DNA of 64,000 nt from an uncultured Candidatus Saccharibacteria bacterium (GCA_964529025.1 CAZGUZ010000001.1:70163-134162), one strand, 5' to 3'. Shown: positions 5,029 to 58,117, counted from the first letter of the stretch. Numbers and translations are program-made. Notes: a model not told the origin generated them from the sequence alone.

Positions 5029-6257
5029 AAATCTGCTAAGAATTTCTTTTTGAATTCTGTATACGTACCATCAAGGAGCGATAATCGTATTTTTTCGACG
5101 AGTGAAATTATAAAGTGTAGGTTATGAATTGAAGCAAGTGTTGCTGCAAGCATTTCATGCGATCTAAATAAATGAGCTAAATAAGCAGCTGTATACTTTT
5201 GAGCAACTGGACTATTAGATGTCGCGTCGAAAGATTCGAGTAATTGGGCAAACTCAGCATTGCGGATATTAATCTTTCCTCGGTTGGTATACAGAGTGCC
5301 ATTTCGCGCAATGCGAGTTGGAGCAACACAATCAAAGGTGTCGACACCATTTTCAATAGCACCAAAAATATCAATTGGCTCGCCAATTCCTAAAAGGTGC
5401 CGTGGTTTATTCTCTGGTAATTCTGAGCAAACCCAGCCTACAGCAGTATCGATATCTTTTTTAGTGAATGAACCACCAATGCCGAAGCCATCGAAAGGCA
5501 TACTTCCAAGGTGACGCGCACACATGCGGCGCAAGTCTTCATGCTGACCGCCCTGCACTACTCCGAAAAGCATTTGATTTTTAGAGTTATTTGCCAAATG
5601 TCTATCAAGAGATCTTTGAGCCCAGCGATGCGTTCTTTCTACTGCTTGTAATTGATATTCATGTGGCGCCATTGGCGAAGTACACTCATCGAAAGCAAAG
5701 AAAATGTCTGCACCGAGCGCATGCTGAATATCCATTGAAAGCTCCGGAGTAAAGCGATGGCGTGATCCATCAATGTGTGACTTAAATGTCACACCATCTT
5801 CATCAATATCAACAAGTGATCCTTGGCCATTACTTTCGCGACCATCATTATCTATCGCCTCATTAAGATCAGCTGCTTTTGTGGTAGCAACCTTGGATAC
5901 ACCTTTACCATATGCTTGCCCTAAAGAAAAAACCTGAAAACCACCTGAGTCAGTAAAAGTTGGGCCATTCCAATTCATAAACTTTCCAAAACCACCAGCT
6001 TGATCAACAAGCTTATGTCCTGGCTCAAGATATAAGTGATATGTATTAGCAAGCACTGCCTGTGCACCTGTAAGATGAATGTCTTCTACCGTAAGAGCTT
6101 TAACTGTAGCTTTTGTTCCCACCGCAATAAAAGCAGGAGTCTGTATATCACCATGTGGAGTTTTAATTGTTCCTACACGTGCTAAGCCAGTACGATATTC
6201 ATCACCTTTACCGCCTCCCTGTGGAAATTTCTTAATAAGTTCAAAGCCAGGCTTCAT
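5001..6257 (-). CDS. tgt: Queuine tRNA-ribosyltransferase (tRNA-guanine transglycosylase)
   Basis: 418 aa with Tgt hallmarks: ...TPAFIAVGTKATVKALT..., ...DCVAPTRIARNGTLYT..., and the zinc-binding region. Confidence 0.85.
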   Translation of the reverse strand: MKPGFELIKKFPQGGGKGDEYRTGLARVGTIKTPHGDIQTPAFIAVGTKATVKALTVEDIHLTGAQAVLANTYHLYLEPGHKLVDQAGGFGKFMNWNGPTFTDSGGFQVFSLGQAYGKGVSKVATTKAADLNEAIDNDGRESNGQGSLVDIDEDGVTFKSHIDGSRHRFTPELSMDIQHALGADIFFAFDECTSPMAPHEYQLQAVERTHRWAQRSLDRHLANNSKNQMLFGVVQGGQHEDLRRMCARHLGSMPFDGFGIGGSFTKKDIDTAVGWVCSELPENKPRHLLGIGEPIDIFGAIENGVDTFDCVAPTRIARNGTLYTNRGKINIRNAEFAQLLESFDATSNSPVAQKYTAAYLAHLFRSHEMLAATLASIHNLHFIISLVEKIRLSLLDGTYTEFKKKFLADFYSESSIGL

Positions 6258-12230: not shown

Positions 12231-13292
12231 CTACTCTGCCGTCACCTGTTTGTAAATATCAAGAAGAGCCAAAAGAAGACTGAGCGATAGTGGACCAAGG
12301 ATAAGTCCGATCGGACCAAAGAATGACAAACCACCGACAACTGACAAAAGAATAAGAAATTCGTGCACATCAACACCTTGCTGAACAATTCGTGGACCTA
12401 AAAAATTGTCGATGAGACCAACTGCAACAACTCCCCATACAAGAAAGCCTACTGCAAATGCTGTAGCGCCTGTAGCAAATAAATAGATAATACCCGGTAC
12501 AACCACAAGTGCCGTACCTACTCCTGGAATCAAAGATGCAATAGCAGCAACACTACCCCACAAAGCTGGGTTTGGTATACCGAACAAAAAGAAACCGAAA
12601 CCCGTAAGCACTCCTTGAATTCCTGCAACCACAAGTGAACCACGGATAACTGAGTTAATTGCTCGCTCGAGTTTAGTAAAAATCAAATTGTCGTATTCAT
12701 CATTAAGAGGTGAAAGCTTAGTCAGCATTGCTCGAACACGTGAACCATCTTTAAGCATATAGAACAAAGCAATGAGCAAGATGAAAGCGTTAAACATGAT
12801 TGTAGCGAAACTCGAGAATACGAAATCAATGTTCGTAAATGACCACTCAAGAGCACTCCTAATATAGGTAGCTATATCGAAAGAATCAAAAGAGATGAGC
12901 GCGCTTTCTCCGAAGATCTTATAGCTTATACGATTTGCAATACCATTAAGTGTATCGATCATTTGTACACGATTGCCTTCATGAGTTAAGTACACATAGA
13001 CATCCTGTGCTTCAAGAGAGATTTGGAGTACTAAAAATGAAAGCGGAATAAGGACCGCCGCAAAAACAATTGCAAGTGTTACACATGTTGAAAATGAACT
13101 GCCTTCATTACCTCGTGAGAATATTTTAGAGACAAAACGGTGCAGTGGCCTAAATAATACAGAAAAAACGAGAGCGAGAACGAGGGTCGAGATGTACGGC
13201 AAAAAAACTAATGTAGTAAGTACCGCTACGACACTTAATAGTGAAAAGAAAAAGTAATGTTGATTTCTATGCATACTCTTAGTATACACCAA
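12231..13292 (-). CDS. AI-2E family (PerM/YhhT-like) transporter
   Basis: 353 aa with about 8 TM helices. The architecture and Gly/Pro-rich C-terminal helices are typical of AI-2E. Confidence 0.65.
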   Translation of the reverse strand: MVYTKSMHRNQHYFFFSLLSVVAVLTTLVFLPYISTLVLALVFSVLFRPLHRFVSKIFSRGNEGSSFSTCVTLAIVFAAVLIPLSFLVLQISLEAQDVYVYLTHEGNRVQMIDTLNGIANRISYKIFGESALISFDSFDIATYIRSALEWSFTNIDFVFSSFATIMFNAFILLIALFYMLKDGSRVRAMLTKLSPLNDEYDNLIFTKLERAINSVIRGSLVVAGIQGVLTGFGFFLFGIPNPALWGSVAAIASLIPGVGTALVVVPGIIYLFATGATAFAVGFLVWGVVAVGLIDNFLGPRIVQQGVDVHEFLILLSVVGGLSFFGPIGLILGPLSLSLLLALLDIYKQVTAE

Positions 13293-15797: not shown

Positions 15798-15833
15798 ACC
15801 GGCTATCCTATCATATTTATAAGCATATAAAAA

Positions 15834-15851
15834 GACCGACGAATGTCGGCC
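15834..15851 (-). terminator. Intrinsic terminator closing the murB-ncRNA transcript, just upstream of the secA promoter region
   Basis: Minus strand: GGCCGAC AUUC GUCGGUC followed by UUUUUAUAU. Confidence 0.6.
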
Positions 15852-15876
15852 TTTGCAAAAAATATGCTTGGGGTTG

Positions 15877-16245
15877 AATGAAGGGGGTGGTTGTACAGGA
15901 GTCTTGGCGGCGACTCAATGTATGCGAGCCACCCCCTTCACCCCTTGCTCACCCAAGGTACTCAGTACCTTGTTGAACTGCGCTAACACTCCGGTCTTGA
16001 AGTGTCACCACTCACTCCCCTTTATCCCCGGAGTGGTTGCGCAGCCGCACAGTAACACCATACTGTGTGGCAGATCCTCGCTCAAGGCCAAGCCTGAGCA
16101 CAAGATCGTATAGAGAACGGGGCCCTTCGACCCTATCCCCTCCCATTTCAAGTAGATTGTTCATTCCCTCTGGCCGCCCTTTTCTCCCCTGGGCCCTACC
16201 AGTGAACAATCCCTACCCAAACGGTCTACACTGCATATAGTATAC
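15877..16245 (-). ncRNA. GC-rich, highly structured non-coding island (candidate housekeeping ncRNA; divergent RNase P RNA is the best guess, identity unresolved)
   Basis: A roughly 370-nt stretch is markedly more GC-rich than the surroundings. It contains many long-range complementary segments, for example GGGGGUGG...CCACCCCC, CACUCCGG...CCGGAGUG and GAUUGUUCA...UGAACAAUC. On the minus strand there are RNase-P-like motifs: AAGGGGUGAAGGGGGUGG (cf. CR-II AGGGUGAAANGGUG), GGGUCGAAGGGCC near the 5' end, and ACAACCACCCCCUUCA near the 3' end, which could form a P4-like GAAGGG/CCCUUC pairing. It sits between the murB stop and an intrinsic terminator. No convincing protein-coding frame is present. 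Confidence 0.4.
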
Positions 16246-16361
16246 ACCATATCTGAATAATGTCAATAGCTTTAAACGCCGACTGATTAATACGGGTGTA
16301 ATATGGCTTTATTGAGCCATTTAGTATAAAGTCACACGACCAGTTACTTGCACTTTTCAAA

Positions 16362-17417: not shown

Positions 17418-17944
17418 GTGATGCGTAATAATGGCGAACGGGTGTTAGCTCCAAATATAATGTCTAAATTAAGATGTGAGTACAGCCGTCCGCCGTTACT
17501 AAGCACCACACATCTACAATCATATACTAATATTAGCGGTAATGCAGGATTTTATCCACATAAAAACGCAAAATCCTGCCGAGACAGGATCTTACGTAGA
17601 CATTCATTTGGTTTGGACTAACAGAGTTAGTACCCACACGTAAATAGTATAGACCCGTATTCTTGAGTGGTCAATGATTTTATACACATACACACAATTC
17701 ACCGAGTATTCCCCTGTTTTCTTAAGAAAGTCTCAAAAAATCATTTTATTTTTATCTCTTTTTTATAAATATTTTAAGAGAACAGGTCATACTATTCGCA
17801 CCACATACGTGGCATTATTATTTAAAATAAATTTATGTCTATTGATACACACGAACCACTCGAGGACCTTATCGAAAATAATACTTTCGAAGAAGACTCG
17901 GATGACTTAACAAATGAGCTTGAGCCATGGCATACTGAAGAAGA

Positions 17945-19342
17945 ATGACCGAGCAAACACTAACCGACACAGAGAGGATTAAGAAAGTGGGAACCACTCT
18001 ACTTAACGGCACTCTTATAGTGCTCGGTTTGTGTACCTGCACCATAATCTACGGCACCTTAACTCGTGGCGAATATTATAACGGTATCAATCTAGGTTTA
18101 TTTATGTGCATAGTTGGGATCATGGTATTCATACGTTTTCTTTACCATAAGAACTGGATTACCCTTGCATCAGTCAGTTTTGTTACCATCTTTGCCCTTG
18201 GCTGCTCTTACGGTGCATTTACATGGGGAGCAAGCATGCCAATCACTCTTTTAGGATTTGGCCTTACTATAGTTTTCACAACCTCGCTTCTTGGCAATAA
18301 AAGCGGTATCGCCGCACTCGTCATCACTGCTGTGGTACTCATAACTGCTGGAGTGCTCGAAATGGATCGTGGCATACCATCATGGAAATCAGAAAACATT
18401 GTCATTGCTGACCTCATCATATATACAGTCATGCTTGGCCTCACGACTCTCGTAGGTTGGTTGGCACAAAAGCAAATTGCTCAGGCACTTGAAAAAGCAA
18501 ATACTGCCGCAAGGGTTCTTAAACAAGAACAACAGAACTTGGGCAATATGGTCTCTGCTCAGGTACAGAAAATCGAAGCGGGCTTTAGAAAAGATATGAC
18601 TTCATCACAACATCAAGCAGATTTTGGAAAAATTGCTCAAGGATTATTCCACGATCTCATTAATCCAATCACCACTTTGACACTCACTATTGAAAGTATT
18701 AGATCGGGGCGAATTGGTATTAACGATGCATACATGCACTCAGAAAGCCTTAAGCGAGCGATATCAAGAACACAAAGATACCTTACTGCAGTTAAAAATA
18801 ACTTGGGTAAACCCAGTCTAGCTTGCGAATTCGATATCAAAGAAGAAATCTTAGCTGCTCTGGCACTCCATGAGTTTAGGGCTCGCCAAAATGACATTGG
18901 GCTTATTGTGCACGGTGAGCCATTCCCTATGTATGGTGATCCGATACAGCTCGGGCAAATTGTCTCTACTTTTGTATCAAATTCACTTGATGCTTTCGAG
19001 GACATTGAACGCAAACACAAGAAAATAATTATTCACTGGAAAATACGTCCGCGCACAATATCACTAACAGTAAAGGATAATGCTTGTGGCATGAGTGCCG
19101 AAACTCTCTCAAAAATCAGCACCTCATTCTTTACAACCAAAGAAAATGGTAATGGTTTTGGTTTAAATGCCGCAAAAAGTTCTCTCGAGAAATTCTTCAA
19201 TGGAACACTTTCCCTAGGTAGCGAGCTCGGAAAAGGAACCACAGTAACCTGTAGTATTCCCTTGCAAACGACTAACTCTCTAAGCGATGAATTGCAAACT
19301 CAAGCAGAAAATAATTACGAAGAGAATCTTGGCTCTCCTTAA
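17945..19342 (+). CDS. Sensor histidine kinase with N-terminal polytopic membrane sensor domain
   Basis: 465 aa with about 5 N-terminal TM helices. H-box (FHDLINPITTL) and HATPase_c N/G boxes (...DNACGMS...GNGFGL...GKGTTV) are present. No response regulator gene is adjacent. Confidence 0.85.
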   Translation: MTEQTLTDTERIKKVGTTLLNGTLIVLGLCTCTIIYGTLTRGEYYNGINLGLFMCIVGIMVFIRFLYHKNWITLASVSFVTIFALGCSYGAFTWGASMPITLLGFGLTIVFTTSLLGNKSGIAALVITAVVLITAGVLEMDRGIPSWKSENIVIADLIIYTVMLGLTTLVGWLAQKQIAQALEKANTAARVLKQEQQNLGNMVSAQVQKIEAGFRKDMTSSQHQADFGKIAQGLFHDLINPITTLTLTIESIRSGRIGINDAYMHSESLKRAISRTQRYLTAVKNNLGKPSLACEFDIKEEILAALALHEFRARQNDIGLIVHGEPFPMYGDPIQLGQIVSTFVSNSLDAFEDIERKHKKIIIHWKIRPRTISLTVKDNACGMSAETLSKISTSFFTTKENGNGFGLNAAKSSLEKFFNGTLSLGSELGKGTTVTCSIPLQTTNSLSDELQTQAENNYEENLGSP

Positions 19343-20267
19343 GCAAATAGAAAAAGCCTGCATACGACATGAACATGAATACTCATTCATATACACGGGC
19401 GCAGGCGGTCATTCTCATAAAAAATTATCTAACCTTGTTCAAAATACATGTATAGCTGGCCTACTTGGAAGTATTCTAAGAAATATACTTCGTAACCAAA
19501 CTATTCATCGCTCAGAAAATATATTGGTTAAAGAGGTAATACTGCGAATACAAAAACATTGCAATAACTACCTAGTTGCTCATGTACGTTCTGGACTAGA
19601 GTGGAACTATTATCCAATCAACACTCAAGCCCGAGTACCGAACGATCTTGATGATACCTCATTAGCACTCTATTCACTATCATCACCCTCAAACGCCACC
19701 ATCATTAGCAACCATTGCCACAAGCTCATAGCTAATACTTCTAGTTACGACCACAAAATTAACAGCTGGCTCAGAAGTGCGTGTAATCCAGCGTGGTTTC
19801 ATGAAGACATTACTGTATTAGCAAACTTCGGGCGCCTTTGTGATTTATACGGAATTACACACGAACCTCTTACGAATCGCATTTATCACCACATTACAGA
19901 CGACCGTAAATCTATATTCTACGTAAATAATTGGTGGGCTCTGTATGCACTTTCTACCTGGCTGCATGACACCACACTCTTAAACCAACTCTATGATTCA
20001 TGCGCCTCAAAAGAAAGTAGGAGTTGTGTGTCCACTCTCGAACTCTTATGCTTTCTCAAGCTCAGGCAGCGTGGCATAATAGCACAAATAAACACTCAAG
20101 AAGCACGTGTCACATATCATAATCTCATCACTGCACAAGATAATAATGATGAGACCGGCATATATTACGAAAAAATTAATCGCTCGCAGATCTTGATAGC
20201 TCACTCACCCATAATAAAACTAGCTATTGAGGTCGAAATACTCCTGTATGGTATACACAAAGAATAA
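19287..20267 (+). CDS. Hypothetical protein with prenyltransferase/squalene-cyclase-like alpha/alpha-toroid repeat motif
   Basis: 326 aa. The motif ...GLEWNYYPINTQARVPNDLDDTSLALYSL resembles the DxDDT(A/S)xxxxAL repeat of class II terpene cyclase and prenyltransferase beta-subunit toroid folds. It is Trp/Tyr-rich. The ATG overlaps the 3' end of the kinase gene by 56 nt and there is no internal Met, so the true start is uncertain. Confidence 0.45.
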   Translation: MNCKLKQKIITKRILALLKQIEKACIRHEHEYSFIYTGAGGHSHKKLSNLVQNTCIAGLLGSILRNILRNQTIHRSENILVKEVILRIQKHCNNYLVAHVRSGLEWNYYPINTQARVPNDLDDTSLALYSLSSPSNATIISNHCHKLIANTSSYDHKINSWLRSACNPAWFHEDITVLANFGRLCDLYGITHEPLTNRIYHHITDDRKSIFYVNNWWALYALSTWLHDTTLLNQLYDSCASKESRSCVSTLELLCFLKLRQRGIIAQINTQEARVTYHNLITAQDNNDETGIYYEKINRSQILIAHSPIIKLAIEVEILLYGIHKE

Positions 20268-21180
20268 TAAGCCACTTAGTAGCTATCACATTAAATGTGT
20301 ACTCGAAACCCCGGCTCGCATTGCACAATATGCACCAAATAAACTACAGAGCCTCGTCAAACAGACCGGGGATCATCTTGTAACCATATCAAAACACCTC
20401 TGGGCATATTACTGTGACCTTGATATGTATCTGGATACCGGCACTCACAACAGCTTTAATGAACCTAATTCACTCCTTCAGGCAGAAAAGATAATACTCG
20501 AAAAAATCAAAGAACTTCCCGAAGCCTACGCAAATGAGCTACTGGGTCAACATATGCAATTTAAAAAAATCTTCATCAAAAGGAGTTTACGAGAACGCGA
20601 TACTCCTGGGCAGCTCAATGAATTTACCTTGCTCAATCTACCCCTCCTTGGTGTGTTTTTTGGCTCAAAAGGAGATTTATTAGCAATACCAACAATCATT
20701 GCATTTAAACACTCGAGCTTACATCAAAAGACAATAAGCTTTTGCTCGCGCTATATGCGATATTTTGTTCGGGTACGGGCAGTTATTGATGATATTAAAG
20801 ATTGGGAAAATGACCTTCAGTATGGGCATTTAACTTGCATCCACCTTCAATGTATTAAAGCACTCGCCTTAATACAGTACGACCAAACGGAGCATTTATG
20901 CCTTAACCTTAAGGATAGCAGAGAACTCATAAAAACAACTTTATACCAGAAAGTCGTACCCCGATTAATTTATGAAATGATTCGCACTCACCGTGAATAC
21001 ATTAAAGAGATTGACTCTGATGAAATCCTTAGTGATGATTTTAAACGTATTAAGGCAATCCTTGAGCCAGCTCTATCCTACTTCGAAAATCTGGCTAATA
21101 AATACAGGCTTTATTGCGAAAGACAATTACCCACAGCAATTAACATTGATGCTAGTACAAAAATCTGCTATAGTATCTGA
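20227..21180 (+). CDS. Hypothetical protein, divergent trans-polyprenyl diphosphate synthase / class I isoprenoid synthase-fold candidate
   Basis: 317 aa with two Asp-rich motifs about 125 aa apart: YYCDLDMYLDTG (FARM-like) and RAVIDDIKDWENDLQYGHLTCIHL. The second aligns with the SARM block FQIQDDILDxxGDxxxxGKxTLPxI of polyprenyl synthetases. It overlaps the preceding gene by 41 nt; the alternative start MVYTK is at 20248. Confidence 0.45.
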   Translation: MRSKYSCMVYTKNNKPLSSYHIKCVLETPARIAQYAPNKLQSLVKQTGDHLVTISKHLWAYYCDLDMYLDTGTHNSFNEPNSLLQAEKIILEKIKELPEAYANELLGQHMQFKKIFIKRSLRERDTPGQLNEFTLLNLPLLGVFFGSKGDLLAIPTIIAFKHSSLHQKTISFCSRYMRYFVRVRAVIDDIKDWENDLQYGHLTCIHLQCIKALALIQYDQTEHLCLNLKDSRELIKTTLYQKVVPRLIYEMIRTHREYIKEIDSDEILSDDFKRIKAILEPALSYFENLANKYRLYCERQLPTAINIDASTKICYSI

Positions 21181-21310
21181 AGAGTTTGGTCTTTTGTTTT
21201 TCTAAAGCTCGCTTCGGCGAGCTTTCCTGTCCTCGCAAAAGCTTTTGCAGGACTTAAGTATAGATGGTTAAGATCTACACTGTGCTTTATAGATAAAAAT
21301 ATAGAGAATA

Positions 21311-21340
21311 AGAAAGCGGTGGCTATGCCACCGCTTTCTT
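21311..21340 (-). terminator. Intrinsic terminator after the DoxX gene; two further hairpins at 21204-21225 and 21228-21256 probably terminate the plus-strand kinase/toroid/synthase transcript
   Basis: AGAAAGCGGUGGC UAUG GCCACCGCUUUCU is a 13-bp stem, followed on the minus strand by a U-rich tract. The two upstream hairpins, AAAGCUCGC UUCG GCGAGCUUU and GUCCUCGCAAAAG C UUUUGCAGGAC, lack clean U-tracts. Confidence 0.55.
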
Positions 21341-21363
21341 ATTACACACAACAAACAAAACGA

Positions 21364-21834
21364 TTAAACCTTTGGTGCGTTTGTGTTAGCAGCAGAAGCT
21401 GTATCACAACTCTTAATACATGTATTCGAAGCACAGCAGCAAACATCTTTTCTTAATAAAGAGAAACGACCACTTCCGGTTACAAAGAGTGCAATGGCAT
21501 TAAGGAGAAGAACGAAATCGAATTCCCAACCACCAGAGAATCCTTTTGCCCACTTTAGTGAGACAATTGCTCCAATCATTACAGCAGCAATAAGAATAGC
21601 AGCGATTCGAGCATAAACACCAAGGACAATCATAATACCCCCAATAAGCTCAATGAAAGCAACAACATAAGCTAGGTACGCAGGCAAACCGATACTTGTA
21701 AAAAAACCGGCAGTCCCTGCAAGGTCTGCAACCTTTGCCCAGCCGTGAACGATAAATACTGAACCCAGAGCAATTCGAATAATTACTAAAGCAATATCAT
21801 TATTGCAACAAACTTTATTAAATAAATTTTTCAT
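21364..21834 (-). CDS. DoxX-family membrane protein with Cys-rich C-terminal tail
   Basis: 156 aa. The DoxX core is MKNLFNK...IALVIIRIALGSVFIVHGWAKV.... It has an unusual C-terminus, ...RKDVCCCASNTCIKSCDTASAANTNAPKV, and an N-terminal CC. Confidence 0.75.
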   Translation of the reverse strand: MKNLFNKVCCNNDIALVIIRIALGSVFIVHGWAKVADLAGTAGFFTSIGLPAYLAYVVAFIELIGGIMIVLGVYARIAAILIAAVMIGAIVSLKWAKGFSGGWEFDFVLLLNAIALFVTGSGRFSLLRKDVCCCASNTCIKSCDTASAANTNAPKV

Positions 21835-31272: not shown

Positions 31273-33609
31273 TTACCAAGCAGGAAAACTTATTTCAATT
31301 GTATGCACACCCTGCTTCAAAGGTAACCCCATAAAGATATCCATGACTAATTCCGGTTTAACATTTTGGCCATCGAGTGTAACTACATAATCAGCAAGAA
31401 ATGCATTGCCTATAACTAAATAACCATCTTTTGTATTTTGAACATTTAAGACAGTCTTTCTTTCCTCATACTGCGGTTTAATTTGAGCGATAACCGGCAA
31501 CAAATCGTAACTTTGTGGCTTTGCTGTGGTCACATAGTATCGGGGCATATAATCACTCAACTCATACAAATACACCTTAGTCCCACACGAACCAACCTGC
31601 CGCTCTGATACAAGTTTAAAATCCTCATGAATAATTGGGTAGCCTGAAACTACATAACGAATGTTGAGGAATTTATAAATTAATCTATTTTTAATAACAC
31701 CCTCAATTTTTTCTTGCACAGAACCTGAAGCTCGCACCACAGAATCACTGTGAAGTGTTTGTTCGGTTGCGAGCTGTGACAGTATCTTTGAGACCCTCTC
31801 GGGCATAAAGTTATCATAGCCATCGACGGCATCGATTCCATAAAGTAATGAAAGATTGGGCTGAAGGAACTCTTTTTGGTATAGCCACACCTCTTCGACT
31901 GAACTTACGCCACAACGAGACAAGACCTCATTATAAATAGTTGTCGCCGGCAATATTGATATGTATCGATATGGCATAGCTCCTTCGCCCTTCTTCATCA
32001 ATGAAACCGTTTCGGGCTCACTTTCTACCTGCTCGCGCTCAATAAATTCATAATGTCCAATATACACACCAGCAAAATTGATCATGACAACTCCGACAAT
32101 CAAATAGCCTACGTAATTTTTTGCATACTTGAGCACCCAGATAGAACCCCATACTGCGACAATGCTCATCAAGACAAAAAATACTACATGATAATCAGTG
32201 AAAGTTAGTTTCCAAAGATCTTCCATGTACATATCAAGTACATAAACATAGTGTTCGTACGGCAAAACGTAGTTACCTAAAAGCAAGGACCGCTCAATCT
32301 TTTGGAGAGCAAAAGAGCGTATATTATCAGAGAAACCAGCGAGCACAATAGTTGCAAGAGAAATTAGAGGCAAAATACAAAATATAAAAATACGGCGGTA
32401 CCACTGAATTACCTTGTCAAAAACACTAATTGATTCTTCATTGTCATCAATAATTTGATTAATAATATATGCGATCAAACAAGCACCTGCAAACCAGCCA
32501 ATAAACATTAATCGTGGTGCCTCTCTAAAACTATCCCACAGCGGTATTTGATGTGTTAACCAAGCAAGTGGTGAATATTTAATTCCGTGAAGTATACAAA
32601 AAATAAAAACTACGTACCAAAACCTGAAATAAAAATTTTGTATCTTTTTCCACGATACCAGAGCTGTGCATAGTAAAAGAAGGCTGAGAATACCGATGTA
32701 TAGATTAGGATTACTTAGCTCAAAGTGAGGGATCTTAATAAAAGGTAGGAAGAAACGTACCGCATCTTGAAACTGATAAGCTCCGGCATAAACTGAATCT
32801 AGACCAACCCCTTCTGCCCTCATGGTCTCAGGCCTGAACGACATGATTGCTGCTATCTGTGGCAACCCATAAAGAAACGACACTAAATAGGCACCAAAAA
32901 GTCCCACACCTTCTTTTGTAAGCAAAATAAGCTTTTGCTTTGTAGTAGTGGTACTGTGGCTGGGGACAAACCAACTTCGAGCACATACATATATGCCGAT
33001 AAAGGTGTGAATATATACAATGTACTGTACATGTCCTACTCTCCAGCCCAAGCCAAGAGCTAAGCCGATAGCAATCCATAAAATAAATTTATTAAACTTA
33101 TTTGTGATACTCGCAATGAGTTCATAAAGGAATAATACTAAAGGTAGAATTGGATAGTACATCACATTTGCGTGTGACTCGACCCACAGCATATTTTGAC
33201 CCGAGAAGACAGCAATTGTCGCACCGGCCACATACGCAAACGGTGAAGCAATAAACTTACGTATATATCCATAAGAAAAGACGTAGGTGAATACAAGTGA
33301 AACAACGATACTTAAAGAATAGAGCGTCATCGGCTCAGCGTACATACCGAGTAAGCGAATAGCAGGAAAAAACCATGTCCCCGTATTTGATGCCAATAGT
33401 GGAAAACCTAAAAGTATTCCCTGAGAAATAACCGGACCACCTCGCATTGCATGAAAAAAGTATTCATAGAATGAAAAGATCACATCGCCATTAGAAATAA
33501 ACTTATTACCAAAAATGATTGGGAAAAATATGGCAACAATGAGTACCATCGGCACGATCGACATTATGTAGAAATTAATTTTTTTCATGTTTTTTAGTGT
33601 AGTTATCAA
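31273..33609 (-). CDS. YfhO-like large polytopic membrane protein (putative lipid-linked glycan transferase)
   Basis: 778 aa. More than 12 TM helices in the N-terminal two thirds, followed by an about 250-aa extracytoplasmic C-terminal domain. Size and topology fit the YfhO family. Confidence 0.5.
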   Translation of the reverse strand: MITTLKNMKKINFYIMSIVPMVLIVAIFFPIIFGNKFISNGDVIFSFYEYFFHAMRGGPVISQGILLGFPLLASNTGTWFFPAIRLLGMYAEPMTLYSLSIVVSLVFTYVFSYGYIRKFIASPFAYVAGATIAVFSGQNMLWVESHANVMYYPILPLVLFLYELIASITNKFNKFILWIAIGLALGLGWRVGHVQYIVYIHTFIGIYVCARSWFVPSHSTTTTKQKLILLTKEGVGLFGAYLVSFLYGLPQIAAIMSFRPETMRAEGVGLDSVYAGAYQFQDAVRFFLPFIKIPHFELSNPNLYIGILSLLLLCTALVSWKKIQNFYFRFWYVVFIFCILHGIKYSPLAWLTHQIPLWDSFREAPRLMFIGWFAGACLIAYIINQIIDDNEESISVFDKVIQWYRRIFIFCILPLISLATIVLAGFSDNIRSFALQKIERSLLLGNYVLPYEHYVYVLDMYMEDLWKLTFTDYHVVFFVLMSIVAVWGSIWVLKYAKNYVGYLIVGVVMINFAGVYIGHYEFIEREQVESEPETVSLMKKGEGAMPYRYISILPATTIYNEVLSRCGVSSVEEVWLYQKEFLQPNLSLLYGIDAVDGYDNFMPERVSKILSQLATEQTLHSDSVVRASGSVQEKIEGVIKNRLIYKFLNIRYVVSGYPIIHEDFKLVSERQVGSCGTKVYLYELSDYMPRYYVTTAKPQSYDLLPVIAQIKPQYEERKTVLNVQNTKDGYLVIGNAFLADYVVTLDGQNVKPELVMDIFMGLPLKQGVHTIEISFPAW

Positions 33610-35507: not shown

Positions 35508-36452
35508 CTAGAAATTATGCATACTCTTTATCGAGTATGGCTTTTTATCTTGCGACTCATAGTAGGTTCGCATAAGCATTTCTGCAATTACACCCATTGT
35601 TATAAGCTGCACGCCAACAATGATACCGAGGGCTCCGAATATGGGTAGTGGAGTGTCTACAAAACTTCGCACATCGAGAATTTTTAAAATGAAAGCTAAT
35701 ACAAGTGCAATAGCACCAAGAATTCCTGAAAAGAAACCTATTCCTCCAAAGAAGTGCATAGGGCGATTCATGTATCGAGCCATGAATTTAATCACGACAA
35801 GATCAAGAAGAACTCGGAAAGTGCGCGTAATTCCATACTTACTCTGACCAAAACGCCTTTGCCTAAAATTAACAGGAACCTCCGTTACTCGAGCACCGTT
35901 CCACGAAGCATAAGCAGGAATAAAGCGATGCATTTCGCCGTACAAACGAACATCTTGTATAACAGATCTTCGATAAGCTTTGAGAATACAGCCGTAGTCA
36001 TGTAAATGGACACGAGTAATATATGAAATTATTTTATTTGCAGTAAGAGAAGGTAATTTTCTTGTTATGAATGAACCCGCCCATCTACCTTGCCTCCAAC
36101 CAGAGACCACATCGTAACCGGAGTCAAGCACCTTAATAATGCGAGCAATATCCGCAGGATCATTTTCAAGGTCACTATCAATAGTAACAAATACATCGCC
36201 TGTTGCATTTTCAATACCTGCAGTTATTGCTGCGCTTTGACCTCTGTTTGCTCTAAAGTTAATAACCTTAAGCTGGGGGTACTTTTTTGCTTGTTCTTCA
36301 AGAACACTCTCTGTCGAATCTTTAGAACCATCATTAACAGCAATAATTTCAAAATCTCCAATTAGTGATAGCTCCTTTGTTAATTCTTCAAACAAAAAAG
36401 GCAGGCTTTCAGCTTCATTATAAATTGGAGTGACAACGGAAAGCTTTTTCAT
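35508..36452 (-). CDS. GT2-family polyprenyl-phosphate glycosyltransferase (GtrB/ArnC/DPM1-like) with two C-terminal TM helices
   Basis: 314 aa. The GT-A core is ...SVVTPIYNEAESL...VNDGSKDST...DSDL.... C-terminal hydrophobic helices are typical of the GtrB/ArnC lipid-carrier-loading enzymes. Confidence 0.75.
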   Translation of the reverse strand: MKKLSVVTPIYNEAESLPFLFEELTKELSLIGDFEIIAVNDGSKDSTESVLEEQAKKYPQLKVINFRANRGQSAAITAGIENATGDVFVTIDSDLENDPADIARIIKVLDSGYDVVSGWRQGRWAGSFITRKLPSLTANKIISYITRVHLHDYGCILKAYRRSVIQDVRLYGEMHRFIPAYASWNGARVTEVPVNFRQRRFGQSKYGITRTFRVLLDLVVIKFMARYMNRPMHFFGGIGFFSGILGAIALVLAFILKILDVRSFVDTPLPIFGALGIIVGVQLITMGVIAEMLMRTYYESQDKKPYSIKSMHNF

Positions 36453-38098
36453 TATTTACGAATACTATATATGTTTTTACCCAAACGCTCAAGGCCCCAA
36501 AAGCTCGATGAAAAGTAGCTACCAATATCCTCAAGCTCCATGCCGCCACCAATAGAAAATGGTATTCCCTCCCTTTGTGTATTGAGTACGAATACTTGAC
36601 CACCAGCCGTGGCACCCTTTTGTAGTACATTTTCACTGCCCACTAAATATCCCTCAATAAAAAGGCCTTTAAAATCATGGTGTTTATTTAACCTTAGCCT
36701 ATCAGAATTTTGATCGAGTACAATCTTGCACCTTGTACCACAAATGTAGTTTACATTGAGCTTATTAAGCGCATATGAACTAGTGCTTTGTCGCACCGAA
36801 AGCAAAGGGCTTACATTATTAACAACAACTGTATTATTATCTTGATACAAACTCACGACCTTATGTGAAGCAACATTATAAGTTGTTGGTACACTCAATA
36901 GCCAAGCACTTCTGAACATGAAAATTATTGAAATCAGACAAAGAACAGTGTTCATTATGGTAAAGACTCGCACATACTTCTCTGCTATTACGTATATACC
37001 CAAAGTGATCCCCAACAATAAACACACTGGTATCATATAACGCAAATAAGCCTCAGGGCTTGTTGACCAACGCGCAATCACCACGATTGCACCGAAATAC
37101 GCCACGCAACTTATAAGTACCAGTTGCCAGAACGATTTTATACCCTCATTGATACCAAGAATCGCTTGCTTCTTTGTGCGAAAGAATAAAGCTAAGCCAT
37201 GAGCAAGAATAATAATAGGGGCAACAAGAAATAGCTTTATAGAATTCGCACTAAAAGACTCACTTATTGTTAAGTTTGTTGCTTTTGCAGTATCCGAAAG
37301 TGTATAGTCAAAAACAATACTCTTGAGCTGAGCAGCTACACCATTCCAGTTGAGTAAAATGATACCGATAGTAACTAATCCGGAAACCGTAACAAGCTTA
37401 AAAAAACCCTGCCAACTCATATTGATCTTTTTTGCATGTATCAAATATACTGACCAGCAAATCATAGTCACCAAAAACACTCCAGCGAGCGGAAAGTTCG
37501 CAGTAGCCATAGCAGAGAAAATAAATGCTGCGTACAAAAAATTTTTCCTACTCTTATCTTGAGTGAGAGCAATTAGGTAATAACGCAAAGAACCAACAAT
37601 GAGCGCGCAAGTTACCACCCAGACTTTACTTGTGTGGAAAATTGTAAAAACGACAAGATTACTCATTGTAAGCACCATAATAACTATACGCCGCCACGTG
37701 GTAGAGCCTGTAACAATTAGAATATCTCTCGTCCACAACATTATCAACACAACTGATGCCACACTAATCAATCGAGCAATGAGATAGACCAACCAAGTGG
37801 AATCTATAAAAAAGAATTTAGTTGCATTAATATCTAAGTTATTCAACAGACCAACAAAGATAACGACTGGTACTATAAAGACATAGTTGAGAAAATAGGT
37901 AACCGTTCCATAGAGAACATCTGTCCCTTGAGGTAATAGGCTCCATGCAGATAATGCTCTTAAAACCGAACCGGGGAACATTTCATCAAAGATAATAGAT
38001 GTCGAGGGAAATCCGTACCACACGCCAACAAGATAAAATATTGTCAGTAAACAAATTACAGCAAAGTCAGAGTTAATTCTCTTAAGGGTAGAGATCAT
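36452..38098 (-). CDS. GT-C-fold membrane glycosyltransferase (GT39/GT83 ArnT/PMT-like)
   Basis: 548 aa. About 11 TM helices with an FDEM motif in the first extracytoplasmic loop, and a C-terminal soluble domain. Translationally coupled to the GtrB-like GT2 (shared nucleotide at 36452). Confidence 0.5.
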   Translation of the reverse strand: MISTLKRINSDFAVICLLTIFYLVGVWYGFPSTSIIFDEMFPGSVLRALSAWSLLPQGTDVLYGTVTYFLNYVFIVPVVIFVGLLNNLDINATKFFFIDSTWLVYLIARLISVASVVLIMLWTRDILIVTGSTTWRRIVIMVLTMSNLVVFTIFHTSKVWVVTCALIVGSLRYYLIALTQDKSRKNFLYAAFIFSAMATANFPLAGVFLVTMICWSVYLIHAKKINMSWQGFFKLVTVSGLVTIGIILLNWNGVAAQLKSIVFDYTLSDTAKATNLTISESFSANSIKLFLVAPIIILAHGLALFFRTKKQAILGINEGIKSFWQLVLISCVAYFGAIVVIARWSTSPEAYLRYMIPVCLLLGITLGIYVIAEKYVRVFTIMNTVLCLISIIFMFRSAWLLSVPTTYNVASHKVVSLYQDNNTVVVNNVSPLLSVRQSTSSYALNKLNVNYICGTRCKIVLDQNSDRLRLNKHHDFKGLFIEGYLVGSENVLQKGATAGGQVFVLNTQREGIPFSIGGGMELEDIGSYFSSSFWGLERLGKNIYSIRK

Positions 38099-39708: not shown

Positions 39709-40838
39709 GACTTTAAATTGAGTAACTGCATAATACCATAAGCACGCTCACCCCAACTATATTTTTTTGCCAATTCTTGTGCTCTATTTGATTTTTGTCG
39801 ATCTGAACTTAGGGCGGCTATGAGTGCCTTTTCGCAACTCTCAACATTATCAGGTTCCATAAAATAAACAGCATTCTCGTCAACAACTTCTTGTATTGCG
39901 GGCACTCGCGAAGCGACAATTGGTATACCGCTCGCCATGTATTCGAAAAGCTTCAGTGGTGATGTATATTCTCGAGCAATAATATCACGAGCTGAATTGG
40001 GTATAACCGCAACTTGAGCAGACTGAATGAACTCTGGAATCTGGGAGTAATTTACATGCCCAAGAAATTTAACTGACGGATGATTATATTCTTTTTTAAA
40101 CTGCTCGATGAGCGACTTAGTTCCACCAACCATATAAAGCATGCTCTTCCTCATAACAGAATTTTGCGAGTTTATAAAAGCACTGAGGAGTGTTCGCACC
40201 CCCTTCCAATCGTATAAATGGCCTGTATATATAATTATTGAACCTGTATCTGTGATTCCCACCCTTTTCCTTGCCTCTCTATAATCAATTCCCAAAGCAA
40301 ACATTTCGTAATCTACCCCATCATGAAATACTGCCGTGCAAGAATGTGGAACTTCTTTGAGAAATAGTTGTCGCAAACCATCCGATATAGTAATTACTTG
40401 CACATTCTTTGATAGGAATCTCCACCAAAACTTACCTCTCTGAGTATGCACCTCGAGAACAACTTTTCTCTTTAAAAGCATCCACAGCATCGCAATAATC
40501 TCGTCACGTGTATATACAACTTCTGAGAGGAAAACACTAGGTAAAAACATCGTTCGCAAAGTAAAAAGTACTATTTGCAAATAGTATCCGATTTTTCCAA
40601 AATATATAATGAAGGGTGTATAGAGTGAGATAATTGACACTTTCTCATCAATTCTATGTATGTCTCTTATCTTTTGTTCAATATCTTTTTCATGAAAAGA
40701 GTATCTCATTGTGACAAGACTCACATCAATACCCTGTTGAGCAAAAGCTGAACACATAGCTGAAATCTGAACGCCGTGAGCTTTTTCAGTAGGAAATCTA
40801 TTATGCGCAATATAAGCAATTTTTATTTTCTTTTCCAT
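39705..40838 (-). CDS. GT4-family (GT-B) glycosyltransferase
   Basis: 377 aa with a C-terminal Glycos_transf_1-like region ...LFEYMASGIPIVASRVPAIQEVV.... Confidence 0.7.
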   Translation of the reverse strand: MEKKIKIAYIAHNRFPTEKAHGVQISAMCSAFAQQGIDVSLVTMRYSFHEKDIEQKIRDIHRIDEKVSIISLYTPFIIYFGKIGYYLQIVLFTLRTMFLPSVFLSEVVYTRDEIIAMLWMLLKRKVVLEVHTQRGKFWWRFLSKNVQVITISDGLRQLFLKEVPHSCTAVFHDGVDYEMFALGIDYREARKRVGITDTGSIIIYTGHLYDWKGVRTLLSAFINSQNSVMRKSMLYMVGGTKSLIEQFKKEYNHPSVKFLGHVNYSQIPEFIQSAQVAVIPNSARDIIAREYTSPLKLFEYMASGIPIVASRVPAIQEVVDENAVYFMEPDNVESCEKALIAALSSDRQKSNRAQELAKKYSWGERAYGIMQLLNLKS

Positions 40839-58085: not shown

Positions 58086-58117
58086 TACTCGCAGCACTCT
58101 TATAGTAATATCAGTAT

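What the first reader, a model, noticed from the sequence alone, without database searches (positions are those of the whole stretch)
17945..21260. Orphan sensor kinase co-transcribed with an alpha/alpha-toroid repeat protein and a divergent polyprenyl-synthase-like protein: candidate undescribed isoprenoid-related module
Three plus-strand genes overlap head-to-tail by 56 and 41 nt and end in hairpins. They are (i) a membrane histidine kinase with no adjacent response regulator, (ii) a 326-aa protein whose only recognisable feature is an NDLDDTSLALYSL motif of the DxDDTA type found in class II terpene cyclases and prenyltransferase toroid repeats, and (iii) a 317-aa protein with two Asp-rich motifs about 125 aa apart. 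The second motif, VIDDIKDWENDLQYGHLTCIHL, aligns with the SARM...GK.TLP.I block of trans-polyprenyl diphosphate synthases. Such a pairing is unexpected in a reduced CPR-like genome. It could be a lipid or cell-envelope isoprenoid-tailoring system under two-component control. Both proteins are too divergent to name.
Basis: partly seen in the sequence, partly recalled or inferred. Interest (0 to 1): 0.65.

Follow-up and report, generated by a model that had tools for sequence, protein, structure and literature searches.

The report
Kinase-linked terpene cyclase–prenyl synthase module
A small operon in a Saccharibacteria genome joins a membrane sensor kinase to a distant relative of acid-driven terpene cyclases and to a protein with the fold of prenyl-chain synthases; in hundreds of uncultured bacteria the same two parts are fused into one protein beside the same kinase and its regulator, which points to an undescribed, signal-coupled isoprenoid system.

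Summary
The three co-directional genes exist. A fourth was missed: a conserved 37-aa acidic ORF that overlaps the kinase start.

P2 is a stand-alone homologue of the TC-beta class II terpene-cyclase domain of drimenol synthases (AsDMS, AstC). A profile search of the PDB gives E=1.8e-10, and these enzymes are the only hits. P2 keeps the catalytic Asp-x-Asp-x-Thr motif and the Tyr that activates the acid. P3 has no sequence-level match to any named family. Its AlphaFold model (pLDDT 77) matches only isoprenoid synthases, best the trans-polyprenyl diphosphate synthases, and its Asp-rich motifs are conserved.

The main new result is context. P2-like and P3-like domains occur fused in one 640-730 aa protein. 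That family (269 metagenomic relatives) has no hit above threshold in Pfam or NCBIfam. It sits directly downstream of an orthologous six-TM kinase in 45 of 47 loci, with an OmpR-type regulator upstream in 43 of 43. In four loci it is fused to the kinase itself. An IPP isomerase gene sometimes follows, translationally coupled.

The biochemical product and the signal sensed are unknown. I read this as a new variant of known enzyme kinds in a new, kinase-coupled architecture.

The parts
17835..17948 (+). 37-aa very acidic ORF (MSIDTHEPLEDLIENNTFEEDSDDLTNELEPWHTEEE, pI 4.05). Its stop overlaps the kinase start (ATGA). It occupies the position that the response-regulator gene holds in non-Saccharibacteria relatives.
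   Evidence: Called as a gene in L001, L004, L006, L009, L010 and L013. Against L006 and L010 it shows 11-12 synonymous versus 2 non-synonymous codon differences. The motif DLT(N/D)ELEPWHTE is kept in all five lineages. It is absent from the 80 other loci. No NCBIfam hit.
17945..19342 (+). Membrane histidine kinase with six N-terminal hydrophobic segments joined by short loops, an H-box (His236, 18650-18652) and a HATPase_c domain.
   Evidence: Pfam HATPase_c 4.3e-19. Hydropathy segments at 17-35, 48-66, 72-92, 98-116, 120-138 and 152-170. 28% identity over 449 aa, including the membrane domain, to the kinase upstream of the fused protein in L095, E=9e-60.
19329..20267 (+). P2: stand-alone TC-beta-type class II terpene-cyclase homologue (312 aa from TTG 19329; the longest ORF starts at 19287).
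   Evidence: PDB profile hits are only AsDMS (1.8e-10) and AstC. hhalign to the N-domains of the fused relatives gives 97.2%, E=2.8e-11, over 237 columns. The model has 12 helices and its top Foldseek hit is drimenol synthase 9mlo.
19638..19658 (+). P2 catalytic-type motif P104-N-D106-L-D108-D-T110 (the DxDxT motif of TC-beta cyclases).
   Evidence: D106, L107, D108, T110 and P104 are invariant in the 14-sequence alignment A7. The motif aligns with AsDMS FPDDLDTT and AstC PHDLDTT. In AstC, D273 is the acid and D271 the base (PMC13244436). In AsDMS, D331 and D333 are essential (PMC12365925).
19920..19922 (+). P2 Tyr198, which aligns with the Tyr that hydrogen-bonds the catalytic acid in AstC (Y361) and presumably in AsDMS (Y427).
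   Evidence: Invariant in A7. The alignment position was derived with the 13-residue numbering offset of chain 22tz.
20248..21180 (+). P3: protein with the class I isoprenoid-synthase (trans-prenyltransferase-like) fold (310 aa from ATG 20248; the longest ORF starts at 20227).
20422..20436 (+). P3 first acidic motif D59-M-Y-L-D63. It is equivalent to the invariant DDFxD of the relatives, with the second Asp lost. It lies at the C-terminal end of helix 31-64.
   Evidence: D59 and D63 are invariant in A4 (36 sequences).
20788..20826 (+). P3 second acidic motif D181-D-I-K-D185-W-E-N-D189-L-Q-Y-G193. It is equivalent to NDDAHDWEEDLxRGH in the relatives and lies at the end of helix 160-184.
   Evidence: D181, D182, D185, D189 and G193 are invariant in A4. 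The only PDB sequence hit of the family aligns this motif with the second Asp-rich motif of a trans-hexaprenyl transferase, but not significantly (E 0.74 and 1.2).
21205..21343 (.). Hairpins after the operon: 21205-21226 (AAAGCTCGC-TTCG-GCGAGCTTT), about 21229-21254, and a 17-bp palindromic stem at 21307-21343 shared with the convergent DoxX gene.
   Evidence: Terminator scan; sequence.

Best explanation
The locus is a four-gene operon: 37-aa acidic ORF, six-TM histidine kinase, P2, P3. It is the split, Saccharibacteria-specific form of a widespread module that matches no curated family above threshold: OmpR-type regulator, orthologous kinase, then one protein made of a TC-beta terpene-cyclase domain fused to an isoprenoid-synthase-fold ('alpha') domain.

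Shown here: the homologies, the fold assignments, the conserved catalytic-type residues, the domain fusion, the kinase linkage and the occasional coupling to idi.

Inferred mechanism:
- P3 (the alpha domain) binds an allylic prenyl diphosphate through Mg2+ held by its two Asp-rich motifs. It then elongates, transfers or presents the chain.
- P2 protonates the terminal double bond with Asp108. Tyr198 positions that acid and Asp106 acts as base. This cyclises the chain into a drimane-like bicyclic head.
- The product is a cyclic isoprenoid lipid or lipid-linked molecule of the membrane or envelope.
- The kinase has only membrane-embedded sensing helices. I propose it monitors the membrane or the isoprenoid/lipid-carrier state, or the product itself. 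It would control the operon through a regulator that is adjacent in relatives but lies elsewhere or is lost here.
- The role of the 37-aa acidic ORF is unknown. Its position and its coupling to the kinase start suggest a kinase modulator.
For: P2 is a TC-beta homologue.
- The PDB profile search of A7 returns only AsDMS (1.8e-10 and 3.7e-9, covering the whole domain 268-523) and AstC (1.6e-3).
- The P2-only profile already finds AstC at the motif.
- The Foldseek top hit is drimenol synthase 9mlo; the remaining hits are mostly alpha/alpha barrels.
- D106, D108, T110, Y198 and D160 are invariant. They map to residues shown by mutagenesis to be essential in AstC and AsDMS.

P3 has the isoprenoid-synthase fold.
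- The Asp motifs are invariant and sit at the C-terminal ends of long helices.

The two domains are fused in relatives.
- P0020, L080, L081, L085/86, L089, L090, L091 and L092 are hit by both the P2 and the P3 profiles in one ORF.

The kinase linkage is conserved.
- 45 of 47 loci with room have the kinase immediately upstream. 43 of 43 have the regulator upstream of the kinase.
- The window kinase is a full-length homologue of those kinases.
- Kinase and beta/alpha are one ORF in L037, L017, L042 and L031. L037 is called as one 1019-aa gene by JGI and ENA.

There is an isoprenoid context. A type-1 IPP isomerase (NF002995, 164.9 bits against a cut-off of 127) lies directly downstream in 6 of 57 loci. 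Its start overlaps the alpha stop by 4 nt in L025, L034 and L076.
Against: - There is no biochemical evidence. No product or substrate is known.
- P3 has no sequence-level homology to polyprenyl synthases: Pfam gives no hit at E<=10 and hhalign to E. coli IspA gives 1.5%.
- P3 has lost the second Asp of the first motif. It has also lost most other invariant polar residues of the alpha family (N101, R105, N136, E139, R144, Q211, N213, H217 in A9 numbering). P3 may therefore be catalytically altered or inactive.
- No RRG or KT-type IPP-binding motifs are visible.
- Most relatives have a truncated N-domain without the DxD motif, so cyclisation is not the conserved core activity.
- The P2 model is of low confidence (pLDDT 56.7).
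- No isoprenoid-precursor or canonical prenyl-synthase gene was found in the window ORFs scanned or in the locus flanks.
- Kinase-enzyme fusions could equally indicate a signalling role for beta/alpha.
Confidence: 0.45

Rival explanations
1. Signalling accessory. The beta/alpha proteins (P2 and P3 here) are not a biosynthetic pathway. They are a cytoplasmic ligand-binding or ligand-processing partner of the kinase. They would bind an isoprenoid diphosphate, for example the FPP or undecaprenyl-PP pool, through the Asp-rich motifs and report it to the kinase. The module would then be a three-component sensor of isoprenoid or lipid-carrier status.
For: Kinase and beta/alpha are one polypeptide in four loci. 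Linkage to the kinase and regulator is near-obligate. The kinase has no extracytoplasmic domain, as in kinases that rely on accessory proteins (own knowledge: LiaFS, BceS-BceAB). The cyclase motif is lost in most relatives. P3 has a degenerate first motif.
Against: Both DDxxD motifs and about 20 further polar or aromatic residues are near-invariant in the alpha family, which fits catalysis better than binding alone. Cyclase catalytic residues are retained in P2 and in one subfamily. Translational coupling with idi suggests flux through the enzyme. Sensor domains are normally N-terminal to the kinase core, not C-terminal (own knowledge).
Confidence: 0.25
2. ComQXP-like pheromone system specific to Saccharibacteria. 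The 37-aa ORF would be a precursor peptide whose invariant Trp is prenylated by the prenyl-synthase-fold P3, as ComQ does to ComX. P2 might then cyclise the prenyl group. The polytopic kinase would sense the lipidated peptide, as ComP does.
For: A small ORF under purifying selection carries the invariant C-terminal motif ELEPWHTE, which contains a Trp. It is translationally coupled to a polytopic kinase. P3 is a prenyl-synthase-fold protein without recognisable IPP-binding motifs. The architecture of ComQXPA is own knowledge, not tested here.
Against: The ancestral module has a response regulator in the peptide's position, and no such peptide motif occurs anywhere in the 80 other loci. The peptide is extremely acidic, has no export signal or leader-like features, and no processing or export gene is adjacent. 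No homology of P3 to ComQ could be tested. No response regulator is present.
Confidence: 0.07
3. Decayed relic. In Saccharibacteria the split genes are remnants of the ancestral module that no longer perform isoprenoid chemistry. They would be structural or moonlighting proteins. The regulator has been lost and the kinase no longer signals.
For: No regulator is found in 64 kb. P3 has lost many alpha-family invariant residues. The family is rare: only 4-5 lineages in 5.8 billion proteins.
Against: All four ORFs are intact in five lineages that differ by up to about 65-70% in protein sequence. The catalytic-type residues of P2, all six Asp residues of P3 and the kinase H-box are invariant. The micro-ORF is under purifying selection.
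Confidence: 0.08

Closest known systems
HAD-like terpene cyclases (HAD-TC-beta): bacterial drimenol synthase AsDMS (PDB 9mhs/9mlo/9m7d) and fungal AstC (22ty/22tz)
   Same: P2 and the N-domains of its fused relatives are sequence-homologous to the whole TC-beta domain (E=1.8e-10). They share the P-x-D-L-D-x-T motif and the Tyr that activates the acid. These are the only PDB sequence hits and the top Foldseek hit. The likely chemistry is the same: protonation-initiated (class II) cyclisation of a prenyl chain.
   Different: There is no HAD phosphatase domain. The partner is an isoprenoid-synthase-fold protein instead: C-terminal in the fusions, a separate gene here. Identity to AsDMS is 16% in the Foldseek alignment. 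Substrate and product are unknown. The module is embedded in a two-component-system operon.
Stand-alone TC-beta cyclase: merosterolic acid synthase (MstE)
   Same: It is a single-domain class II cyclase of about 300 aa. It is cited as the closest structural relative of the AsDMS TC-beta domain and as the model for a free-standing ancestor (PMC12365925). P2 is likewise free-standing.
   Different: It was not recovered by my sequence or Foldseek searches, so no direct relation was shown here. It acts in a meroterpenoid gene cluster, not next to a kinase.
trans-Polyprenyl diphosphate synthases (Pfam PF00348; e.g. PATL_3739 4jyx, Arabidopsis 3aq0, M. luteus HexB 3aqb, E. coli IspB 3wjn)
   Same: Same all-helical fold (TM 0.50-0.56 over about 300 columns). 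Two Asp-rich motifs about 125 aa apart at the ends of long helices. In relatives both are exact DDxxD.
   Different: No significant sequence similarity. In P3 the first motif is DMYLD. No RRG or KT-type IPP-binding signatures. The family has its own invariant residues (ANxxxR, NxWE...R, QxNDDAHDWxxD...G, FW).
Bifunctional class II/class I terpene synthases (gamma-beta-alpha diterpene synthases of plants and fungi) and bacterial class II + class I gene pairs (own knowledge)
   Same: They combine a DxDD-type protonating cyclase domain with a diphosphate-ionising class I-fold domain, in one protein or one operon.
   Different: There is no gamma domain. The beta domain is of the TC-beta (DxDxT) type. 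The alpha domain resembles chain-elongating prenyltransferases more than cyclases (aristolochene and trichodiene synthases reach only TM 0.32).
ComQXPA quorum-sensing locus of Bacillus (own knowledge)
   Same: A prenyl-synthase-like protein, a small Trp-containing ORF and a polytopic histidine kinase in one locus.
   Different: The gene order differs, there is no adjacent regulator, the peptide is highly acidic, an extra cyclase-like gene is present, and relatives outside Saccharibacteria have no peptide. Homology to ComQ, ComX or ComP was not tested.
Intramembrane-sensing two-component systems such as DesK/DesR and LiaFSR (own knowledge)
   Same: The kinase's input is made only of membrane helices. 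The operon couples the system to a lipid- or envelope-related effector gene.
   Different: The sensor domain matches no Pfam family. The effector is a terpene-synthase-like protein, and in some lineages it is fused to the kinase.

Membership tests
HAD-like TC-beta class II terpene cyclases (AsDMS/AstC) | TC-beta alpha/alpha-barrel cyclase domain homologous over its whole length | tested here: met
   The A7 profile against the PDB hits AsDMS at 1.8e-10 over profile positions 38-304 and chain residues 268-523, and AstC at 1.6e-3; there are no other hits. Foldseek top hit is 9mlo. The P2 model has 12 helices.
HAD-like TC-beta class II terpene cyclases (AsDMS/AstC) | D-x-D-T(T) motif with the acid Asp (AstC D273, AsDMS D333) and the base Asp (D271, D331) | tested here: met
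   P2 D106-L-D108-D-T110 aligns with the motif. D106, D108 and T110 are invariant in 14 sequences; position 109 varies (D, S or V).
HAD-like TC-beta class II terpene cyclases (AsDMS/AstC) | Tyr that hydrogen-bonds the catalytic acid (AstC Y361, AsDMS Y427) | tested here: met
   AstC Y361 (chain residue 374 of 22tz) aligns with P2 Y198, which is invariant in A7.
HAD-like TC-beta class II terpene cyclases (AsDMS/AstC) | N-terminal HAD-like phosphatase domain fused to the cyclase | tested here: not met
   P2 is 312 aa and has no Pfam or NCBIfam hit. The fused relatives carry a C-terminal isoprenoid-synthase-fold domain instead.
HAD-like TC-beta class II terpene cyclases (AsDMS/AstC) | Protonation-initiated cyclisation of FPP to a drimane skeleton | not testable with these tools
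   Needs an enzyme assay.
Squalene-hopene cyclase / prenyltransferase toroid repeats (PF13243, PF13249, PF00432) | Match to the Pfam profiles at the gathering score | tested here: not met
   P2 has no hit at E<=10. The fused relatives give only sub-threshold hints: P0020 scores 27.3 against a cut-off of 26.1 over 82 residues; L091 E=0.0023; TIGR01787 E=0.003.
trans-Polyprenyl diphosphate synthases (PF00348) | Isoprenoid-synthase alpha-helical fold | tested here: met
   Foldseek PDB: all 50 top hits are isoprenoid synthases, and the best are trans-prenyltransferases with TM 0.50-0.56, probability 1.0, E from 7e-3. The model has pLDDT 77.
trans-Polyprenyl diphosphate synthases (PF00348) | Sequence match to the family profile | tested here: not met
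   P3 has no hit at E<=10. Relative L023 gives E=0.02, below the cut-off. PDB profile searches give E=0.74 and 1.2. hhalign to IspA gives probability 1.5%.
trans-Polyprenyl diphosphate synthases (PF00348) | First Asp-rich motif DDxx(xx)D | tested here: inconclusive
   P3 has D59-M-Y-L-D63: the first and last Asp are kept and the second is lost. Relatives have an invariant DDFxD.
trans-Polyprenyl diphosphate synthases (PF00348) | Second Asp-rich motif DDxxD | tested here: met
   P3 has D181-D-I-K-D185 and relatives have DDAHD; both are invariant.
trans-Polyprenyl diphosphate synthases (PF00348) | IPP-binding basic signatures (RRG after the first motif; KT) | tested here: not met
   Inspection of A4 and A9 shows DDFWDEDExAxPxLLPxAN after motif 1, with no RRG. 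The definition of the signature is own knowledge.
Class I terpene cyclases | DDxxD plus an NSE/DTE triad, and a cyclase-type alpha fold | tested here: inconclusive
   The second motif can be read as a (N/D)Dxx(D)xxx(D) variant. Cyclases appear among the Foldseek hits but at TM about 0.32, against 0.5 or more for prenyltransferases.
Two-component system | Histidine kinase with a phospho-accepting His and an ATPase domain | tested here: met
   H-box FHDLINP (His236) and HATPase_c at 4.3e-19.
Two-component system | Cognate response regulator encoded beside the kinase | tested here: not met
   tblastn with the relatives' regulator finds none in the 64-kb window or in the Saccharibacteria loci. It is present upstream in 43 of 43 other loci (Pfam Response_reg + Trans_reg_C).
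ComQXPA-type pheromone locus | Secreted precursor peptide with a prenylated Trp, a ComQ prenyltransferase, a ComP kinase and a ComA regulator | not tested
   Only circumstantial parallels were seen: a 37-aa ORF with an invariant Trp, a prenyl-synthase fold and a polytopic kinase. No regulator is present, and no such peptide motif occurs in the 80 other loci.

The most novel reading that the evidence does not exclude
A large group of uncultured, probably Patescibacteria-type bacteria, including some Saccharibacteria, are thought to depend on scavenged lipids. Under this reading they make their own cyclic isoprenoid lipid with a previously unrecognised terpene-synthase architecture: a TC-beta class II cyclase joined to a divergent prenyl-synthase-fold domain. 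That enzyme is physically and genetically wired to a membrane-embedded histidine kinase, and sometimes fused to it. The module would then be a self-contained sensor-effector circuit for membrane or lipid-carrier homeostasis. In Saccharibacteria the circuit would have been rewired, with the adjacent regulator replaced by a conserved acidic micro-protein.
Probability: 0.3. Interest if true: 0.85.

Novelty: new variant of a known kind. Interest (0 to 1): 0.68.

Why it matters
- **Terpene-synthase architecture.** TC-beta cyclases fused to HAD phosphatases were solved structurally only in 2025-2026. This finding would add a third architecture: TC-beta with a prenyl-synthase-fold partner, either free-standing or fused. 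It has at least 269 members in metagenomes and no family-level annotation.
- **Biology of reduced-genome bacteria.** It places terpenoid-type chemistry in reduced-genome episymbionts, whose membrane and envelope biology is poorly understood.
- **A kinase with its effector.** The enzyme is tied almost obligately to a two-component system and is sometimes fused to the kinase. That offers a rare case in which an uncharacterised sensor kinase comes with a strong hint about its effector.
- **Testability.** The prediction can be tested directly by expressing P2, P3 or a fused relative with prenyl diphosphates.

Tried and rejected
- **Pfam and NCBIfam.** Scans of P2 and P3 gave nothing. Scans of six fused relatives gave only sub-threshold hints.
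- **PADLOC.** No hits, so this is not a known defence system.
- **Single-family PDB profiles.** P3 gave nothing. The deeper alpha profiles gave only a non-significant polyprenyl synthase hit.
- **hhalign of the alpha family against E. coli IspA.** No homology.
- **L012 (Actinomycetota).** This locus, pulled in by the genome scan, is a false positive: an acyltransferase-like membrane protein that shares the word SIFYVNNWW.
- **P0020.** It ends prematurely inside the second motif, so I used it only as one of several fusion examples.
- **Deep alignments for AlphaFold.** The P2 model is of low confidence.
- **Response regulator.** A tblastn search for the relatives' regulator in the window found nothing, and no tRNA or Rfam family was found.
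- **Taxonomy of the 80 metagenomic loci.** It could not be established. Accession-prefix literature searches only showed that the SDBT/SDBS contigs are deep-sea sediment. Calling these loci CPR or Patescibacteria is therefore inference.
- **Literature.** Searches found no description of this family or of a kinase-terpene synthase linkage.

Full report
**Observation.** The three + strand ORFs are at the stated coordinates: 17945-19342 (465 aa), 19287-20267 (326 aa) and 20227-21180 (317 aa). The 56- and 41-nt overlaps apply to the longest ORFs. Public gene calls start P2 at TTG 19329 and P3 at ATG 20248, which gives overlaps of 14 and 20 nt. Three hairpins follow the last stop codon, including a 17-bp palindromic stem at 21307-21343 shared with the convergent DoxX gene. 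The kinase has six hydrophobic segments with short loops, an H-box His236 and a HATPase_c domain.

A 37-aa, very acidic ORF at 17835-17948 has a stop codon that overlaps the kinase ATG. It is called in all related contigs. It shows 11-12 synonymous against 2 non-synonymous codon differences to its closest relatives, and it keeps the motif DLT(N/D)ELEPWHTE in all five lineages. No response regulator is detectable in the 64 kb.

The lineage is Saccharibacteria by inference. A contig with 57%-identical P2 and the same synteny is titled 'uncultured Candidatus Saccharibacteria bacterium'.

**First-pass annotation.** Neither P2 nor P3 hits any Pfam or NCBIfam model even at E<=10. Each has only four homologues among 5.8 billion clustered proteins, all from the same narrow group. 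A full HMMER scan of 1.84 billion representatives with the P3 profile found only three proteins: a P3-family representative (P0006), a divergent Saccharibacteria homologue (P0021) and one 427-aa protein, P0022 (E=4.5e-5). P0022 shares the motif QLNDDLHDWEEDLERGHLS. The P2 profile found one outside protein, P0020 (541 aa, E=6e-4), which shares PNDLDDTALAL.

**The bridge.**
- P0020's C-terminal half is homologous to P0022 (BLASTP 3e-19). P0020 therefore carries a P2-like and a P3-like domain in one chain.
- A metagenome scan seeded with this family returned 269 relatives, of which 80 loci were kept.
- In these, a C-terminal domain of about 330 aa has two near-invariant motifs about 130 aa apart: (I/T)IYDDFxD(E/D)E and QxNDDAHDWxxDLxxG(H/Q).
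- One subfamility of 640-730 aa proteins (L080, L081, L085/86, L089-L092) has a complete N-terminal P2-like domain, in most members with the motif YPDDLDDT; L080 has DLDVT. These ORFs are hit by both the P2 and the P3 profiles.
- P2 and P3 are therefore the two halves of a protein that is fused elsewhere.

**What P2 is.**
- The P2-only profile already found AstC in the PDB, aligned at the motif (E=0.01).
- The 14-sequence profile A7 returns only four PDB sequences. Two are the drimenol synthase AsDMS (1.8e-10 and 3.7e-9, covering its whole TC-beta domain) and two are AstC.
- P2 D106-L-D108-D-T110 aligns with AsDMS DDLDTT and AstC HDLDTT. P104, D106, L107, D108, T110, Y198 and D160 are invariant.
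- In AstC, D273 is the Bronsted acid, D271 the base and Y361 and N324 position the acid (PMC13244436). In AsDMS, D331, D333 and Y427 are essential (PMC12365925).
- By the HMM alignments, AstC Y361 corresponds to P2 Y198, and N324 falls next to the invariant D160.
- The AlphaFold model of P2 is of low confidence (pLDDT 56.7, pTM 0.65, 12 helices). Its best Foldseek hit is nevertheless drimenol synthase 9mlo (E=0.04, probability 1.0). Most of the remaining hits are alpha/alpha barrels.
- P2 is therefore a free-standing TC-beta-type class II cyclase homologue with the catalytic residues intact. It lacks the HAD domain that defines the characterised family.

**What P3 is.**
- The model is usable (pLDDT 77.2, pTM 0.78).
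- All 50 best Foldseek PDB hits are isoprenoid synthases. trans-Polyprenyl diphosphate synthases lead: 4jyx, 3aq0, 3aqb, 3wjn and Rv0562, with TM 0.50-0.56 over about 300 columns, E from 7e-3 and probability 1.0. Class I cyclases trail at TM about 0.32.
- The acidic motifs sit at the C-terminal ends of helices 31-64 and 160-184. These are the positions of the two Asp-rich motifs in this fold (own knowledge).
- At the sequence level the relation is not demonstrable. Pfam PF00348 gives nothing for P3. The family's only PDB hit is a trans-hexaprenyl transferase aligned at its second Asp-rich motif, with E=0.74 and 1.2. hhalign to E. coli IspA fails.
- P3 keeps D59, D63, D181, D182, D185, D189 and G193. 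It has lost the second Asp of motif 1 and most other invariant polar residues of the family. Its catalytic competence is therefore uncertain.

**Context in relatives.**
- Of 47 loci with at least 1.5 kb upstream, 45 have a multi-TM histidine kinase immediately upstream on the same strand. The kinase and the alpha gene often overlap.
- All 43 loci with room have an OmpR-type regulator upstream of the kinase (Pfam Response_reg + Trans_reg_C).
- The window kinase is a full-length homologue of these kinases, membrane domain included (28% identity over 449 aa, E=9e-60). The linkage is therefore ancestral.
- In L037, L017, L042 and L031 the kinase and the beta/alpha protein form a single ORF. The 1019-aa L037 protein is called as one gene by two sources.
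- A type-1 IPP isomerase (NF002995, 164.9 bits against a cut-off of 127) lies just downstream in 6 of 57 loci. Its start overlaps the alpha stop by 4 nt in three of them.
- Most relatives have a shortened N-domain without the DxD loop. The alpha domain, not the cyclase, is therefore the conserved core.
I found no paper that describes the family.
- I could not determine the taxonomy of these contigs.

**Mechanism (inference).**
- The best-supported reading is an isoprenoid-processing pair under two-component control.
- P3 (alpha) holds a prenyl diphosphate through Mg2+ and its Asp motifs. P2 cyclises the chain by protonation at D108.
- The kinase's input is purely intramembrane. It would sense membrane or isoprenoid status, or the product itself.
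- The kinase fusions and the loss of the cyclase motif in most relatives keep a second reading open: beta/alpha could be a ligand-binding signalling partner of the kinase.
- A ComQXP-like reading of the Saccharibacteria-specific micro-ORF with its invariant Trp is possible but unparsimonious. Relatives carry a regulator in its position, and no such peptide motif occurs in their loci.
- The operon lies beside a surface-glycan gene cluster of about 30 kb. That fits an envelope role but does not show one.

**Verdict.** The enzyme kinds are known. The fusion or pairing, the family itself and the obligate kinase linkage are not described. I rate the finding as a new variant of a known kind, with interest 0.68.

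Noticed in passing
window 15800-16361, minus strand (core about 15840-16260): A conserved structured RNA of about 420 nt and unknown family lies between secA and murB. GC is 51-57% against about 40% background. MFE is -182.6 kcal/mol, z=-6.6. A TTGACA/TATACT promoter-like element lies upstream and an invariant terminator hairpin (AAAGGCCGACATTCGTCGGTCTTTTTAT) downstream. Across three lineages (window, L006, L009), 19 of 117 predicted pairs show compensatory changes. There is no Rfam match even at E<=1 and no tmRNA by ARAGORN.
   Followed up: partly
window 1-64000: No tRNA gene and no Rfam family at gathering score in the whole 64 kb.
   Followed up: no
L037:300-3359; also L017, L042, L031: The histidine kinase, a degenerate toroid domain and the isoprenoid-synthase-fold domain are encoded as one continuous ORF (1019 aa in L037). 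Two independent sources call it as a single gene.
   Followed up: partly
L025:9341-9874, L034:9314-9841, L076:828-1370: The start of a type-1 IPP isomerase gene overlaps the stop of the alpha-domain gene by 4 nt, which suggests translational coupling.
   Followed up: partly
L095:4193-4813 and 5273-6181: In one non-Saccharibacteria locus the beta-like and alpha-like parts are separate ORFs with a gap of about 460 nt. This is either an independent split or a disrupted gene.
   Followed up: no
L013:1804-2796: The most divergent Saccharibacteria lineage has an intact P2 homologue with the motif PHDLDSTSLAL that the source's gene caller did not call.
   Followed up: yes
window 23355-53000, mostly minus strand: A long surface-glycan gene cluster sits directly beside the operon's neighbours. 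It includes a Wzy_C/TPR protein, a flippase, GT2, GT4, GT9 and GT47 glycosyltransferases, several methyltransferases and an AsnB-like amidotransferase.
   Followed up: no
window 51522-53474 (-), 12231-13292 (-), 21364-21834 (-): A type IV secretion coupling-protein-like ATPase, an AI-2E family transporter, and a DoxX protein with a weak match to HvfX-type RiPP maturation proteins.
   Followed up: no
window 56745-58909 (+), 31273-33609 (-), 36452-38098 (-), 40823-42502 (-): Five sizeable ORFs (263-778 aa) have no Pfam match at E<=1e-5.
   Followed up: no
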